Shown piece after piece: positions 5,931-8,725 of a DNA stretch of 32,000 nt. Where the stretch lies: NCBI GenBank assembly GCA_016699145.1, contig CP064962.1, forward strand, positions 1,080,001 through 1,112,000, written 5' to 3'. Origin of the DNA: Candidatus Saccharimonadota bacterium (GTDB taxonomy: Bacteria; Patescibacteriota; Gracilibacteria; UBA1369; 2-02-FULL-48-14). The notes beneath the pieces were generated by a model. It saw only the letters and a list, made by a program, of their open reading frames with translations, had not been told where the DNA came from and searched no databases. The translations under genes were made by a program, and so were the position numbers. Positions within the stretch are counted from its first letter, which is position 1, and every line of letters begins with the position of its first letter.

Positions 5931-6063
5931 AAGTATATGACTACAACAATTTCAGATGTAATGTGGATGAATTTAGGAAAGGGCAAACTTCATTTCTTTT
6001 TAGTCCACAATGGGAATATTGAAAAAGTCCTGAACCAGATCAAGAATTTATAAATTAATCTGC

Positions 6064-7104
6064 ATGCCCTCTGCTTTTAGAAAAATTGCTGCAAAAGTTA
6101 AGCAACTCTTCAAAAGAGCGGAGAGTCTTTCAGATATCATCAAAAAAGAAATTAGGGTTGATAAAAAGACAAGAAAGCAACTTCTCGAGACAAAGCATCC
6201 GCTTTGGATGCCTTCAGCTTCTTCGACCTTCAAAATGGTTGGACTAATGGGAATTGCGTGGATAGTTTCGCACCCTACAGAAATACTTAATAAGATAATT
6301 CTTCCTATCAACGGGCTTGCCAATAATTTGTTGTACTATGCGCAAACAACAAGGCCTATCAAGGGATGGATGCGTTCATTGCAATGGCCAGCTCTTCCTC
6401 TCATTCCAAATGACTTTGACCCGATAGCTATTCATGCAGGCGTTGGCGCGATTTTAGTTGGTTTGATTTTCTTTGTGGCGGGTAGTTTGCTTGATAAAAA
6501 CGAACCAGAAAAGGCTCGTGTATTGCTGTATAAGAGCAACCTCTTCCCGTTGTTAATTGTGGAGACTCTTGCATTCTTTTTCTTTATCGGAGAAACGAAT
6601 TGGTTTGCGGTAATTATACTAGTTATCATTGCTATTTTAACCCTAGTTTCTTTCGGAAGAGTTGTCGATGTTTTATTGCATGAGCATAAGCTGGAAGAGG
6701 CTAAGAAGGACATTCTGCTAAGCGTTACCAGATCGGCATTCGTTAAACTTCTCGACAGAGAAATTACTAAAAGAGTGTGGTTTAACTGCCTGTATAAACG
6801 CTATGAGAATAGTGAGATTTTGAATTTTAGCCCGTTTGGCTTTTGGGGTGAAAAGAAGGAAGTTGTTGCAATCAAGTCTACAAAGGATGGCTACATCAAA
6901 GAGCTGAAACTGAAAATTTTAGAAAAACTCACCTCAGAAATCAATAGAGCAATTACTGATACCGCAAACAATGCTGATATTACTAAAACGGCTGCAAACT
7001 CATCTCAGCAGAAAAAAACGCCTGCTGGCTACATGCGCAAATCACTGAACGATGGAGTGAGGGTTGGCGAAACTCTATATTTGATAGAACATGGCGTTAT
7101 CTAA
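6064..7104 (+). CDS. hypothetical membrane protein (cassette ORF 1)
   Basis: 346 aa. It has a basic N-terminus, then hydrophobic segments (MVGLMGIAWIV, GVGAILVGLIFFVAGSLL, LFPLLIVETLAFFFFIG, FAVIILVIIAILTLVSF), then a soluble C-terminal part. Confidence 0.6.
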   Translation: MPSAFRKIAAKVKQLFKRAESLSDIIKKEIRVDKKTRKQLLETKHPLWMPSASSTFKMVGLMGIAWIVSHPTEILNKIILPINGLANNLLYYAQTTRPIKGWMRSLQWPALPLIPNDFDPIAIHAGVGAILVGLIFFVAGSLLDKNEPEKARVLLYKSNLFPLLIVETLAFFFFIGETNWFAVIILVIIAILTLVSFGRVVDVLLHEHKLEEAKKDILLSVTRSAFVKLLDREITKRVWFNCLYKRYENSEILNFSPFGFWGEKKEVVAIKSTKDGYIKELKLKILEKLTSEINRAITDTANNADITKTAANSSQQKKTPAGYMRKSLNDGVRVGETLYLIEHGVI

Positions 7105-7124
7105 AGGAGCTTTCTGCATATCAC

Positions 7125-8222
7125 TTGGAGCCAAAGCTGCGTGATGAAGACTACCCTGAACAAGATTTCAAGGATTATTCCATTCATATCCTGCGCACAT
7201 TTCAGGAATTATTAAAATCGGCTTTCGATAAGCGCGACTTTGAGAATTTCGGGCAATTCTTGAATGCCTTTAGTAAATTATTCGAACGCTTAGGGCGTCA
7301 TAATCGGTATAACGATAACGGAGAAGAAATCAAAACTGTATATGATGAGCTGGATGAGAAACGTGAGGAGATTGTTTTCGGGCTTGCAAGTTGGATTTTA
7401 TCTATCTTGAAACAAGATTCTGATAAAGACACAACAAAACGTTTCTACCAGAGTATCCAGCAGCATTTACCAAGTAGCATTGAAGAGTTGACTAAGGTAT
7501 TCATGAGAGTACACAGTTTTGATACCGGAGATCGTTGGGGTTGGGATTGGTGGGAATCAAGGCCAGATGAAGGAGTTCATACAATCAACACCTTGGAAAA
7601 ATTGGAACGATTATTTGTCGTAAAATCTTTAGCACTCCTAAGGTCAAAAACTGAAACTGAAATTCAGAGCATCAACCTTCCTCATAATCGTGATCTCGCC
7701 TTTTTGGCTGAAGGTACGAGAGATGCAATGAAGACTATTGATGATATAGAAAAGAATCCAAAGAATTGGGAGTTTGTATTAGATGAGCAGTCGGCCAAAC
7801 AGTGCATTGCTCTACGTGATTTACTGAAAAAGGCGCACGATCAACAAGAACAAACCGATCTTCAAAGGAAAAGAGAGACCCCTATTTCCAAGGAGATGGT
7901 TGAAAAGTTCAAAACATCTCTCCTCTCAAACTACAATCAAAGCCACCCACTAAAATCAATTCTTAAGGGATTGCGCGCTTATAGCGATAAATCGGGTAAA
8001 TCATACACGGGCGATATAAAAAAAATGGGTATTAACATGGTGTTTGATAAAGCGCCATTCTTTGGTGATGATGTTGAATGGCATATTCATACCATCGGAT
8101 TGGATGAGGCATTCGGTTTTGGTCGCAGTATGGCTAATGGAGAAAATGAACACATCCTCGATGTAATTGATAAAGCGTCTATGATAATTCAGGGGGAAAC
8201 TTCGAATCAACTCTCTCTTTGA
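7125..8222 (+). CDS. hypothetical protein (cassette ORF 2)
   Basis: 365-aa ORF with only a TTG start, 15 nt after AAGGAG (7104-7109). Its frame is open back to 6987, so it may be continuous with ORF 1 through a 1-nt frameshift. Confidence 0.5.
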   Translation: MEPKLRDEDYPEQDFKDYSIHILRTFQELLKSAFDKRDFENFGQFLNAFSKLFERLGRHNRYNDNGEEIKTVYDELDEKREEIVFGLASWILSILKQDSDKDTTKRFYQSIQQHLPSSIEELTKVFMRVHSFDTGDRWGWDWWESRPDEGVHTINTLEKLERLFVVKSLALLRSKTETEIQSINLPHNRDLAFLAEGTRDAMKTIDDIEKNPKNWEFVLDEQSAKQCIALRDLLKKAHDQQEQTDLQRKRETPISKEMVEKFKTSLLSNYNQSHPLKSILKGLRAYSDKSGKSYTGDIKKMGINMVFDKAPFFGDDVEWHIHTIGLDEAFGFGRSMANGENEHILDVIDKASMIIQGETSNQLSL

Positions 8223-8725
8223 TCAAGACATCCAAAATCATAATTATTGCGACCAATCGAGCTGTCTGGAATTTCTTTGATCGTAGATCTGGCAACTACA
8301 TTCCTAAATGGCGTGGGGATTTCCCGCAAGAATTTGCTTCCGATGAAATGATTGAAGGGGTGTACAAATACAAACGGACTTACATTCCAGTTTATGAACT
8401 CTACACACAGGATTCCGACCAATCTAAAATTTACATTTTAGATAAAACTAAGATCGGAAAATTCATCCAATACTCCCCCTTAAATAAGGGAGAATCTAAG
8501 GAATTTCGGCTCGAAAACTTCATGGTAAGTGTGCAGCCGTTTGAGCAAGATTCTGATTTGATGAAGGAATTCTTGCAAAAAACACCTGAGTGGCTGAAGG
8601 AAGAAGGCGCTCAAGATAAGCAGATTGAATACTTACGCGAAAGAGTCCTGATACATGTTTACGAAAGGTACGAGTTTCAGTTACATAAGAACTTCTTAGG
8701 ATACTCGCTTGTGGTAGAGAGGTAG
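8219..8725 (+). CDS. hypothetical protein (cassette ORF 3)
   Basis: 168 aa. The TTG start overlaps the upstream TGA (TTGA). Its frame is open back to 8174, across a G5 run at 8192-8196. Confidence 0.5.
   Translation: MIKTSKIIIIATNRAVWNFFDRRSGNYIPKWRGDFPQEFASDEMIEGVYKYKRTYIPVYELYTQDSDQSKIYILDKTKIGKFIQYSPLNKGESKEFRLENFMVSVQPFEQDSDLMKEFLQKTPEWLKEEGAQDKQIEYLRERVLIHVYERYEFQLHKNFLGYSLVVER

What the first reader, a model, noticed from the sequence alone, without database searches (positions are those of the whole stretch)
5937..8725. Orphan three-ORF cassette (possibly one broken gene of about 880 aa) next to the R-M module
ORFs 6064-7104, 7125-8222 and 8219-8725 lie in frames that step by -1 at each junction, which is what 1-nt deletions would produce.

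At junction 1, the only available start is a TTG placed 15 nt after the SD. The downstream frame is open back to 6987. Inserting one T at GTTAT (7096-7100) would read HGV-YLKELSAYHLEPK.

At junction 2, a TTGA overlap looks like normal translational coupling. However, a G5 run (8192-8196) with one extra G would read IQGGNFESTLSLIKTSKIIIIATN.

The product or products have a basic N-terminus, about 4-5 TM helices, and then about 600 aa of soluble sequence with no motif I recognise. Placement directly after an R-M system in an AT-rich island fits a membrane-anchored anti-phage effector.

A 38-codon ORF (5937-6053, MTTTISDVMWMNLGKGK...) lies between the R gene and the cassette and is not in the track.
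Basis: partly seen in the sequence, partly recalled or inferred. Interest (0 to 1): 0.65.

Follow-up and report, generated by a model that had tools for sequence, protein, structure and literature searches.

The report
Decayed R-M-linked capsid-fold membrane gene
The three ORFs are the wreck of one roughly 1,065-residue gene from a large, unnamed family of membrane-anchored proteins that end in a phage-capsid-like (HK97-fold) domain and sit at the tail of many different restriction-modification operons; this points to a new kind of anti-phage accessory, although the copy in this window is dead.

Summary
The three ORFs and their stepwise frames are real, and they are one broken gene. Intact relatives are single proteins of about 1,040-1,135 aa. 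The window copy has lost about 174 codons through an out-of-frame internal deletion at 7077-7080; this is not a 1-nt indel at 7096-7100. It also carries a frameshift at or near the G5 run (8192-8201).

The family is large: 1,611 clusters at 50% identity. It is richest in Patescibacteria and matches nothing in Pfam, NCBIfam, PADLOC or PHROGs. AlphaFold2 predicts a basic N-terminus, about 4 TM helices, a small alpha/beta domain, a roughly 450-aa alpha-solenoid, and a C-terminal domain. That C-terminal domain matches only HK97-fold major capsid proteins and encapsulins in Foldseek (55 PDB hits and 65 BFVD hits at E<=1e-3).

In 18 of 31 distinct loci the gene lies immediately 3' of an R-M system, on the same strand. 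The systems are unrelated to each other (types I, II, IIS, IIG/ISP-like, III, GmrSD/HNH). The downstream neighbours are never R-M genes. The 38-codon ORF is the relic 3' end of a displaced res gene, so the upstream R-M module was swapped.

Best reading: an inactivated copy of a new, probably non-enzymatic, R-M-linked anti-phage membrane protein with a capsid-fold domain. The function is inferred, not shown.

The parts
3518..3766 (+). HTH_3 (Cro/C1-type) controller-like gene at the head of the R-M operon.
   Evidence: Pfam HTH_3, E 6.8e-12. L001 and L050 also begin their R-M + family-gene operons with an HTH_3 gene.
3770..4840 (+). D12-class N6-adenine DNA methyltransferase (type II M).
   Evidence: Pfam PF02086, E 3.6e-17. 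PADLOC MTase_II, E 2.7e-56. Copies at >=90% identity occur as orphan methyltransferases on phage-like contigs L064 and L065.
4833..5930 (+). Putative restriction endonuclease partner (365 aa; the longest ORF starts at 4782).
   Evidence: It matches no family. It has 2,365 unnamed homologues. In two independent contexts the homologue directly follows a D12 MTase with overlapping stop and start. The REase assignment is inferred from this pairing.
5978..6053 (+). Relic 3' end of a displaced ResIII-type res gene. It makes up most of the '38-codon ORF' 5937-6053.
   Evidence: Residues 9-38 are 73-86% identical to the last ~30 aa of the Res proteins that precede the family gene in L006, L002, L021 and L024. 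The DNA alignment runs through the stop codon and the short spacer into the start of the family gene.
6064..7079 (+). Pseudogene segment A (frame 1): basic N-terminus, about 4 TM helices, stalk helix and most of the small alpha/beta domain. It corresponds to P0002 residues 1 to ~340.
   Evidence: tblastn with P0001, P0002 and P0008; alignment A1; hydropathy.
7077..7080 (+). Deletion junction. About 174 codons plus 1 nt are missing (P0002 residues ~343-516: the end of the alpha/beta domain and the first ~7 helices of the solenoid). ORF1 then runs into a stop at 7102-7104.
   Evidence: Alignment A1 columns ~413-596 are absent from the window only. The tblastn segments abut at 7077-7086 in different frames.
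7077..8198 (+). Pseudogene segment B (frame 0): the remaining alpha-solenoid and the first third of the HK97-like domain. The listed ORF 7125-8222 is the part after the first TTG.
   Evidence: frame open from 6987; IFDRTWRYLKEL is read in this frame.
8192..8201 (+). Frameshift site at or near the G5 run (frame 0 to frame 2).
   Evidence: The tblastn segments of P0001 (888|889) and P0002 (892|893) abut here with no residues lost. The frame-2 reading NFESTLSLIKTS matches the homologues.
8198..8725 (+). Pseudogene segment C (frame 2): the rest of the HK97-like domain. This is listed ORF 8219-8725.
7944..8722 (+). Region equivalent to the C-terminal HK97-fold (capsid-like) domain (P0002 residues 806-1066), cut by the frameshift.
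   Evidence: AF2 model of P0002 806-1073: pLDDT 87.3, pTM 0.82. Foldseek PDB gave 55 hits at E<=1e-3, all HK97-fold capsid proteins or encapsulins. BFVD gave 65 hits, and every named hit among the 50 listed is a capsid or head protein.
8746..9027 (-). Small convergent gene of about 93 aa (possible TTG start at 9027 after a GGGGG Shine-Dalgarno; alternative ATG at 8982). It is very highly conserved and marks the 3' flank of the cassette.
   Evidence: It is 82-87% aa identical in L001 and L010, and 76% in L006, although the family genes there are only 42-62% identical. Differences from L001 are biased to third codon positions. It also occurs next to other cargo (RhuM, T5orf172-like) without the family gene.

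Best explanation
Window 6064-8725 is a pseudogene. It is one gene of a large, uncharacterised family of about 1,065-aa proteins, inactivated by two lesions: an out-of-frame internal deletion of about 520 nt at 7077-7080, and a frameshift at or near the G5 run at 8192-8201.

Intact family members are predicted to have, in order:
- a basic cytoplasmic N-terminus;
- about four TM helices carrying conserved polar residues;
- a stalk helix and a small alpha/beta domain;
- a roughly 450-aa alpha-helical solenoid;
- a C-terminal domain with the HK97 major-capsid-protein fold.
The last three are inferred to lie in the cytoplasm.

The gene is typically the last, co-oriented and tightly spaced gene of R-M operons of many unrelated types. 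The upstream R-M module is exchangeable. In this window a D12 MTase + REase pair replaced an ancestral mod-res pair and left about 75 nt of the old res gene behind.

Inferred function: a second-line, non-enzymatic anti-phage module that works alongside restriction. The cytoplasmic capsid-fold domain and solenoid would engage phage head-assembly proteins, either as a sensor or as an assembly decoy. The membrane domain would either anchor this interaction or act as a permeabilising effector.

Shown: the pseudogene status, the family size and architecture (predicted structure), and the R-M linkage. Inferred: the defence role, the topology and the mechanism. This copy is non-functional.
For: Pseudogene:
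- Homologues are single proteins of 1,043-1,135 aa. Nearly all of the best 150 of 1,611 HMM hits are 1,000-1,200 aa.
- tblastn shows three collinear segments in frames 1, 0 and 2, with P0002 residues 343-516 missing (alignment).
- The conserved motif IFDRTWRYLKEL reads in frame 0 upstream of the nominal ORF2 start.

Architecture:
- Full-length AF2 model: pLDDT 82.9.
- C-terminal domain model: pLDDT 87.3, pTM 0.82.
- Foldseek hits are exclusively HK97-fold capsid proteins or encapsulins in two libraries, with best E values of 8e-6 and 9e-7 and TM 0.45-0.52.
- Hydropathy and N-terminal charge (14 K/R against 5 D/E) support the topology.
- The C-terminal domain recurs behind different multi-TM N-terminal regions in Pseudanabaena, Brachyspira and Saccharibacteria.

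R-M linkage:
- Upstream neighbours include type III-like N6_N4_Mtase + ResIII (L001, L006, L021), AlwI with two D12 MTases (L007), EcoRI-type MTase + GmrSD/HNH (L050, L017), DpnII (L032), type I (L011, L030, L035), an Eco57I/ResIII fusion (L009) and a C5 MTase (L013).
- 18 of 31 distinct loci are positive.
- Intergenic gaps are 3-35 nt in many loci.
- Among 52 downstream neighbours, no R-M family appears in the 25 most frequent of the 66 families matched.

Module swap: the relic res tail, and the window's MTase + R pair occurring elsewhere without the family gene.

Non-enzymatic role: in 120 diverse members, the positions conserved at >=90% are mostly aromatic, Gly or Pro, with no catalytic motif.

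Scattered distribution across phyla, and serine recombinases nearby, indicate mobility.
Against: - There is no experimental or sequence-family evidence of a defence role. PADLOC, Pfam, NCBIfam and PHROGs give nothing.
- The HK97 fold rests on predicted structures only. No sequence-level similarity to capsid proteins was found: one marginal PHROG 'head protein' hit at E 0.012 and no tblastn hit in 50,697 phage records.
- TM-scores are moderate (0.4-0.5).
- 13 of 31 loci, especially the most divergent members, lack a recognisable R-M neighbour.
- Read-level support for the two lesions could not be checked. mutS in the same window is also frameshifted, so indel errors in the assembly cannot be excluded for junction 2.
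- The cytoplasmic location of the soluble part depends on a simple hydropathy count.
Confidence: 0.6

Rival explanations
1. Assembly or sequencing artefact: the organism carries an intact gene, and the two lesions (or at least the G5 frameshift) are errors in the deposited genome.
For: Junction 2 lies at a homopolymer. A second gene in the window, mutS, is also split by a frameshift, which could reflect indel-prone sequencing.
Against: Junction 1 lacks about 174 codons, which a base-calling error cannot produce. All other long genes examined in the window are uninterrupted, including ThrRS, asparaginase, SSB, S6 and the 1,226-aa ORF. The mutS shift lies in a GCCA repeat rather than a homopolymer. 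Even with junction 2 repaired, the gene stays broken.
Confidence: 0.1
2. Three separate, functional, translationally coupled genes: a membrane subunit plus two soluble subunits.
For: There is a TTGA stop/start overlap at 8219-8222 and an AGGAG upstream of ORF2. The source genome annotates ORF1 and ORF3 as separate proteins.
Against: No relatives are organised as three genes. Family-conserved residues are read across the junctions in the 'wrong' frames. ORF2's only start is a TTG 15 nt after the SD. The split at junction 2 cuts through a single predicted fold, just after the spine helix of the HK97-like domain. About 174 conserved residues are missing.
Confidence: 0.04
3. The family is not a defence gene. 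It would be a membrane or cell-envelope protein, or a membrane tether or scaffold for R-M enzymes or DNA uptake in small-genome bacteria. Alternatively, the R-M adjacency only reflects shared residence in mobile islands.
For: No defence family matches. No catalytic motif is present. 13 of 31 loci have no R-M neighbour, and some sit beside housekeeping genes such as dnaN and mfd in L041. The family is enriched in Patescibacteria, which depend on DNA uptake (the last point is from general knowledge).
Against: The association is polar and operon-like: same strand, 3-35 nt gaps, always at the 3' end, with R-M families dominating upstream and absent from the listed families downstream. It spans mechanistically unrelated R-M types, which argues against a partnership with any one enzyme. 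Distribution across phyla is sporadic and recombinases lie nearby. Loss by decay in this window is typical of accessory genes.
Confidence: 0.2
4. The capsid-like domain is a remnant of a cryptic prophage, satellite or encapsulin gene fused by chance, so the locus is degraded mobile-element debris rather than a dedicated cellular protein.
For: The structural matches are to phage capsid proteins, encapsulins and satellite procapsids.
Against: The same TM + solenoid + capsid-fold architecture is conserved in more than 1,600 clusters at 50% identity and under 30% pairwise identity. That implies long-term purifying selection on the whole protein. No portal, terminase, protease or cargo genes appear among about 110 neighbours. 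There is no sequence similarity to phage genes.
Confidence: 0.06

Closest known systems
HK97-fold major capsid proteins of tailed phages, and encapsulin shell proteins
   Same: The predicted fold of the C-terminal ~260 aa matches: E-loop-like hairpin, long spine helix, A-domain sheet and helices, and long P-domain strands. Foldseek prob is 1.00, with E down to 9e-7. An alpha-helical region precedes the fold, which loosely recalls the N-terminal scaffolding (delta) domains of some capsid proteins (general knowledge).
   Different: There is no sequence-profile match. The domain is fused behind about 800 aa that include about 4 TM helices. There are no head-morphogenesis or cargo genes nearby. 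The gene sits in R-M operons. Shell assembly is untested.
Defence proteins that sense the phage major capsid protein (Lit/Gol, CapRel, Avs7/8/10)
   Same: They act late, are keyed to head proteins and complement restriction. Avs7 wraps the HK97-fold capsid protein in a helical-repeat (TPR) sensor (PMC13581612), and this family also has a large helical solenoid.
   Different: Those systems recognise the capsid protein. None is reported to contain a capsid-fold domain itself. They have enzymatic or STAND NTPase modules that are absent here, and they are not membrane proteins.
Satellite capsid-redirecting proteins (SaPIbov5 Ccm, P4 Sid)
   Same: Ccm is an HK97-fold homologue that interferes with helper-phage capsid assembly. 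The corresponding SaPIbov5 and P4 procapsid entries (7rwz_C, 7jw1_C) are among the Foldseek hits. This is a precedent for a capsid-fold protein acting as an assembly poison.
   Different: They are soluble, encoded by satellites with packaging functions, and not fused to membrane or solenoid domains.
R-M-linked abortive-infection or accessory genes (PrrC in EcoprrI, Ymh/Abi-like, RhuM and Fic genes in R-M loci)
   Same: They occupy the same genomic niche. Ymh, RhuM and Fic genes occur in the very same loci. Second-line defence logic is presumed.
   Different: No sequence or fold relationship. PrrC guards one specific type I enzyme, whereas this family accompanies many R-M types.
Membrane-embedded defence systems (Kiwa KwaAB, Zorya ZorAB, SNIPE, Tmn)
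   Same: All combine an N-terminal multi-TM anchor with a large cytoplasmic part.
   Different: No PADLOC match. This is a single gene, with no nuclease, NTPase or motor domains, and its capsid-fold domain is unique.

Membership tests
HK97-fold capsid/encapsulin superfamily | HK97 topology (E-loop, spine helix, P and A domains). | tested here: met
   Predicted structure only. Foldseek PDB gave 55 hits at E<=1e-3, all capsid proteins or encapsulins. BFVD gave 65 hits, and every named hit among the 50 listed is a capsid or head protein. TM is 0.40-0.52.
HK97-fold capsid/encapsulin superfamily | Sequence-profile membership (Pfam or PHROG capsid or encapsulin families). | tested here: not met
   Pfam gave no hit (precomputed Pfam is '-' for all homologues). 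PHROGs gave one marginal 'head protein' hit, E 0.012, in 1 of 25 members. tblastn against phages gave nothing.
HK97-fold capsid/encapsulin superfamily | Genomic company of head-morphogenesis genes (portal, terminase, protease) or of encapsulin cargo. | tested here: not met
   None appears among the Pfam families listed for about 110 upstream and downstream neighbours.
HK97-fold capsid/encapsulin superfamily | Self-assembly into capsomers or closed shells. | not testable with these tools
   This needs multimer modelling or experiment.
Pseudogene of the ~1,065-aa family | Full-length single-ORF relatives, with collinear similarity spread over several frames and missing conserved sequence. | tested here: met
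Type II R-M system (window 3518-5930) | DNA methyltransferase with catalytic motifs. | tested here: met
   PF02086 and PADLOC MTase_II. The DPPY motif is visible in the translation.
Type II R-M system (window 3518-5930) | Cognate restriction endonuclease. | tested here: inconclusive
   The 365-aa gene matches no family or PDB entry. In other genomes it is consistently paired with a D12 MTase, with overlapping stop and start.
Known anti-phage defence systems (PADLOC-DB 2.0) | A match to any component model. | tested here: not met
   The three window fragments have no hit at E<=1. Intact members were not scanned.
Defence gene by guilt-by-association | Significant, conserved co-localisation with known defence genes across unrelated genomes. 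| tested here: met
   18 of 31 distinct loci have R-M genes immediately upstream. The listed downstream-control families include no R-M family. No formal statistics were computed.
Programmed frameshift or phase-variable gene | A slippery heptamer or long homopolymer, and the same shift conserved in relatives. | tested here: not met
   The tract is only G5, there is no X XXY YYZ heptamer at 8189-8199, and no relative has the shift.

The most novel reading that the evidence does not exclude
A capsid-fold (HK97-like) domain has been exapted into a cellular immune protein. A membrane-anchored protein, co-transcribed with restriction-modification systems, would use its own capsid-like domain, together with a wrapping helical solenoid, to co-assemble with or sense phage head proteins in the cytoplasm. 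It would then block head assembly or open its TM bundle as an abortive-infection pore. This would be a third fate of the HK97 fold, after virus capsids and encapsulins, and a widespread, so far unnamed defence family concentrated in Patescibacteria.
Probability: 0.3. Interest if true: 0.9.

Novelty: categorically new. Interest (0 to 1): 0.72.

Why it matters
If the family-level reading holds, four things follow.
1. It defines a large (>1,600 clusters), unnamed protein family that travels with restriction-modification systems of every major type.
2. It is the first case I could find of an HK97 capsid fold embedded in a membrane protein outside capsids, encapsulins and satellites.
3. It suggests that molecular mimicry of the phage capsid protein is used as an immune strategy.
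4. It adds to the very thin knowledge of anti-phage defence in Patescibacteria.

For genome annotation, three 'hypothetical proteins' should be merged into one pseudogene, and the 38-codon ORF should not be called. The relic res tail and the exchangeable R-M module show how defence operons are rebuilt around a resident accessory gene.

Tried and rejected
- Family scans of the window fragments against Pfam, NCBIfam and PADLOC, and of the homologues' C-terminal domain against PHROGs, found nothing.
- A PDB sequence-profile search with the family alignment returned only noise.
- Foldseek with the whole 1,073-aa model returned only generic helical-repeat matches at TM <=0.21, which was uninformative. 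Only the isolated C-terminal domain gave a specific answer.
- A word-index search with the C-terminal domain profile returned only the window's own ORF3 and one other protein.
- The hypothesis that the conserved block 3' of the gene is a tRNA/tmRNA-like RNA or an att site was rejected. It ends in GGTTCGAATC...CCCCCACCA, but ARAGORN and Rfam find nothing. The stretch is in frame with a small minus-strand gene that has third-position-biased substitutions and a GGGGG SD.
- Programmed frameshifting or phase variation at the G5 run was rejected: there is no slippery site and relatives are unshifted.
- Classical integration at the 3' end of the neighbouring tRNA-Arg gene was not supported. The island lies on the 5' side of the gene.
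- Naming the source organism failed. Exact look-ups give no names, only a 1,338,973-bp NCBI contig.
- Microhomology at the deletion junction could not be inferred, because the closest relative is only 66% identical.
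Full report
OBSERVATION

The three ORFs exist as described: 6064-7104, 7125-8222 and 8219-8725, in frames 1, 0 and 2. 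The frame of ORF2 is open back to 6987, and a G5 run lies at 8192-8196. None of the fragments matches Pfam, NCBIfam or PADLOC. Upstream lie:
- an HTH_3 gene at 3518-3766;
- a D12 N6-adenine methyltransferase at 3770-4840;
- a 365/382-aa gene ending at 5930.

GC falls to 0.32-0.40 between about 3500 and 8700, against 0.42-0.54 around it.

ONE BROKEN GENE, BROKEN DIFFERENTLY THAN PROPOSED

A search with the fused translation found 34 relatives. All but one fragment are single proteins of 979-1,135 aa (all but one of them over 1,040), and the best is 66% identical. An exhaustive HMM search found 1,611 clusters at 50% identity (748 at E<=1e-30). The best 150 are almost all 1,000-1,200 aa.

tblastn places P0002 on the window as follows:
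- residues 1-342 on 6064-7086, frame 1;
- residues 517-892 on 7077-8201, frame 0;
- residues 893-1066 on 8201-8722, frame 2.

The alignment shows a window-specific gap of about 174 residues between GETL(Y) and IFDRTWRYLKEL. Junction 1 is therefore an out-of-frame internal deletion of about 520 nt, with its breakpoint at 7077-7080. It is not a 1-nt loss at 7096-7100. The highly conserved motif DRTWRYLKEL is read in frame 0 upstream of the nominal TTG start of ORF2.

Junction 2 is a simple frameshift at or beside the G5 run, with no residues lost. The frame-2 reading NFESTLSLIKTSKIIIIATN matches the relatives. Either one G was lost or two were gained; removing two Gs gives exactly the homologue length.

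There is no slippery heptamer, and no relative carries the shift, so programmed frameshifting is not supported. Apart from these two lesions the three segments are open and 62-69% identical to P0001, which suggests fairly recent decay. I could not check reads. The source genome (a 1,338,973-bp NCBI contig) annotates ORF1 and ORF3 as separate proteins.

WHAT THE INTACT PROTEIN LOOKS LIKE

An AlphaFold2 model of P0002 with 33 relatives (pLDDT 82.9, pTM 0.64) shows:
- a basic helical N-terminus;
- a membrane domain, with four hydrophobic segments by hydropathy (one weak in this clade), and 14 K/R against 5 D/E in the first 45 residues;
- a long stalk helix;
- a small alpha/beta domain (~250-366);
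- an all-alpha solenoid (~370-815);
- an alpha/beta C-terminal domain (~818-1065).

Four TM helices with a basic N-terminus imply that the ~850-aa soluble part is cytoplasmic. This is an inference.

Foldseek with the whole model gave only generic helical-repeat matches. The C-terminal 268 residues modelled alone (pLDDT 87.3, pTM 0.82) gave 55 PDB matches at E<=1e-3. All of them are HK97-fold major capsid proteins, encapsulins or satellite procapsids. Examples are phages NF5, DEV, PhiTE, HRP29, N4, T5 and Che8; encapsulins 9bje, 8wol, 8t6r, 6x8m and 7lij; and the SaPIbov5 and P4 procapsids. The same model gave 65 BFVD matches, and every named hit among the 50 listed is a capsid or head protein, with best E 9e-7 and TM up to 0.52.

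The secondary-structure order fits the fold: hairpin, 26-residue helix, mixed sheet with helices, long C-terminal strands. No sequence-level link to capsid proteins was found, so the fold assignment rests on prediction.

In the window this domain spans about 7944-8722, and the frameshift cuts it just after the spine helix. The deletion removed the end of the small alpha/beta domain and roughly the first seven solenoid helices.

Across 120 diverse members, the positions conserved at >=90% are mainly aromatic, Gly and Pro. Only R236, E430, D484, K842, E873 and Q982 are polar. There is no recognisable catalytic motif, which favours a binding, assembly or pore role.

The C-terminal domain also occurs behind different multi-TM N-terminal regions. 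One example is a 1,021-aa protein on a Pseudanabaena plasmid (hhalign probability 99.9 over the last ~290 residues only). Others are in Brachyspira and Saccharibacteria. The architecture is therefore older and wider than the core family.

GENOMIC CONTEXT

Forty-four genome loci encode relatives. Most are in Patescibacteria (Uhr-, Parcu-, Peregrini-, Moranii- and Saccharibacteria). Scattered members occur in Gammaproteobacteria, Spirochaetes, Verrucomicrobia, Aminicenantes, Atribacter and Clostridia.

Upstream, on the same strand and usually 3-35 nt away, lie R-M systems of unrelated kinds:

| Upstream system | Loci |
|---|---|
| N6_N4_Mtase + ResIII | L001, L006, L021, L028 |
| Two D12 MTases + AlwI | L007; L012 partly |
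| EcoRI-type MTase + GmrSD_N/HNH | L050, L017 |
| EcoRI-type MTase | L015 |
| N6_N4_Mtase + DpnII | L032 |
| Type I HsdR/M/S | L011, L030, L035 |
| T5orf172-ResIII-Eco57I fusion | L009 |
| C5 + D12 MTases | L013 |
| N6_N4_Mtase + an unknown partner | L010, L022 |

I count 18 of 31 distinct loci as positive. Ymh, RhuM and Fic genes, which are common passengers of R-M loci, occur in the same operons.

As a control, among 52 genes at positions +1 and +2 downstream, no R-M family appears in the 25 most frequent of the 66 families matched; those listed are metabolic or miscellaneous. The gene therefore marks the 3' end of R-M cassettes.

Loci without R-M are mostly the most divergent members, or sit beside serine recombinases.

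MODULE SWAPPING IN THE WINDOW

The 38-codon ORF is not a gene. Its residues 9-38 are 73-86% identical to the last ~30 residues of the Res proteins that precede the family gene in L006, L002, L021 and L024. The DNA alignment continues through the stop codon and the ~10-nt spacer into the start of the family gene. The ancestor of this copy therefore followed a mod-res pair. That pair was replaced by the present lower-GC HTH-MTase-R module, with a breakpoint about 75-90 nt before the old res stop.

The 365-aa R candidate has 2,365 unnamed relatives. In two independent contexts it directly follows a D12 MTase with overlapping stop and start, and no family gene follows it. The pair is thus an independent two-gene module. 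Its REase role is inferred from this pairing only.

MECHANISM

Three things are shown: a decayed gene, a large conserved family with a TM + solenoid + capsid-fold architecture (predicted), and a polar operonic linkage to diverse R-M systems.

The following is inferred. Because the partner R-M types share no enzymology, the protein probably does not assist one enzyme. It more likely adds an independent layer that acts when restriction fails. The cytoplasmic capsid-fold domain is the obvious candidate to interact with phage head proteins, in one of three ways:
- as a decoy that poisons capsomer or procapsid assembly (SaPI Ccm is a precedent);
- as a capsomer-like oligomerisation platform that gathers the TM bundles into a pore;
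- as an intramolecular pseudo-ligand of the solenoid that incoming capsid protein displaces (compare Avs7, whose TPR sensor wraps the HK97-fold capsid protein; PMC13581612).

I put about 0.9 on the pseudogene, about 0.6 on a defence role, and about 0.25-0.3 on a capsid-directed mechanism.

COMPARISON WITH THE KNOWN

Libraries and full-text searches turned up no description of a membrane-anchored or R-M-linked HK97-fold protein. Known exaptations of the fold are encapsulins and satellite capsid-redirecting proteins. Known capsid-directed defences (Lit, CapRel, Avs7/8/10) recognise the capsid protein but do not resemble it.

The family passes the fold test for the HK97 superfamily. It fails the sequence-profile and gene-neighbourhood tests. 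I therefore describe it as 'has an HK97-like domain', not as a capsid protein or an encapsulin.

VERDICT

At window level this is a dead gene and an annotation correction. At family level it is an unexpected, testable lead: a new R-M-associated membrane protein with a capsid-fold domain.

Main caveats:
- the structures are predicted only;
- the function is inferred from context only;
- no read-level check was possible;
- the context sample is modest (31 loci).

Noticed in passing
window 10608-11375 and 11405-13249: mutS is split into two ORFs (MutS domains I-II, then III-V) by a frameshift around 11330-11340, inside a GCCAGCCAGCC repeat. This is either a second real pseudogene, which could make the organism a mutator and favour indels such as the G5 shift, or a sign of indel errors in the assembly.
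   Followed up: partly
window 8746-9027 (minus strand); L001 13273-13548, L010 13118-13390, L006 6980-7242, L056, L059: A small convergent gene (~78-93 aa, MTVDEYLAHQPEEEM...) is 82-87% identical in L001 and L010, lineages whose adjacent family genes are only 42-62% identical (76% in L006). It also flanks other cargo (RhuM, T5orf172-like, a transposase) without the family gene. It looks like a conserved anchor or hotspot flank for variable defence cargo. It matches no Pfam family.
   Followed up: partly
window 3770-4840; L064 8001-9065, L065 8001-9071: The window's D12 methyltransferase has >=90% identical copies on phage-like contigs (many small ORFs, YopX, WDGH, phage GroEL/ES, other MTases) with no restriction gene beside them. 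Phages carrying this MTase would be protected from the window's R-M system.
   Followed up: partly
window 3236-3251 and 9102-9117: A 16-nt direct repeat (TCAGCAGGCTCGTCAC / TCAACAGGCTCGTCAC, 15 of 16 identical) brackets the whole low-GC island, from the HTH gene to the small convergent gene. The chance expectation is about 0.25, so it is only suggestive of island ends.
   Followed up: no
window 2996-3070 (minus strand): A tRNA-Arg(CCT) gene lies just left of the island. The island is on the 5' side of the tRNA gene, so this is not a classical 3'-end tRNA integration.
   Followed up: partly
window 17084-17656 and 17598-18389: An AbiEii-type nucleotidyltransferase toxin gene (PF08843) is preceded by an overlapping 190-aa ORF with no family match, possibly its AbiEi-like partner. 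This is a second defence or TA locus in the window. An RHH-type small gene lies at 13303-13539.
   Followed up: no
window 20454-29447: A run of large ORFs (519, 402, 794 and 1,226 aa) has no Pfam match at all.
   Followed up: no
L063 (Pseudanabaena galeata plasmid pPg_05) 2029-8867: A 1,021-aa multi-TM protein shares only the capsid-fold C-terminal domain with the family. It follows a PIN-domain gene and an 802-aa hypothetical gene rather than an R-M system, so the domain has a different partner set in cyanobacteria.
   Followed up: partly
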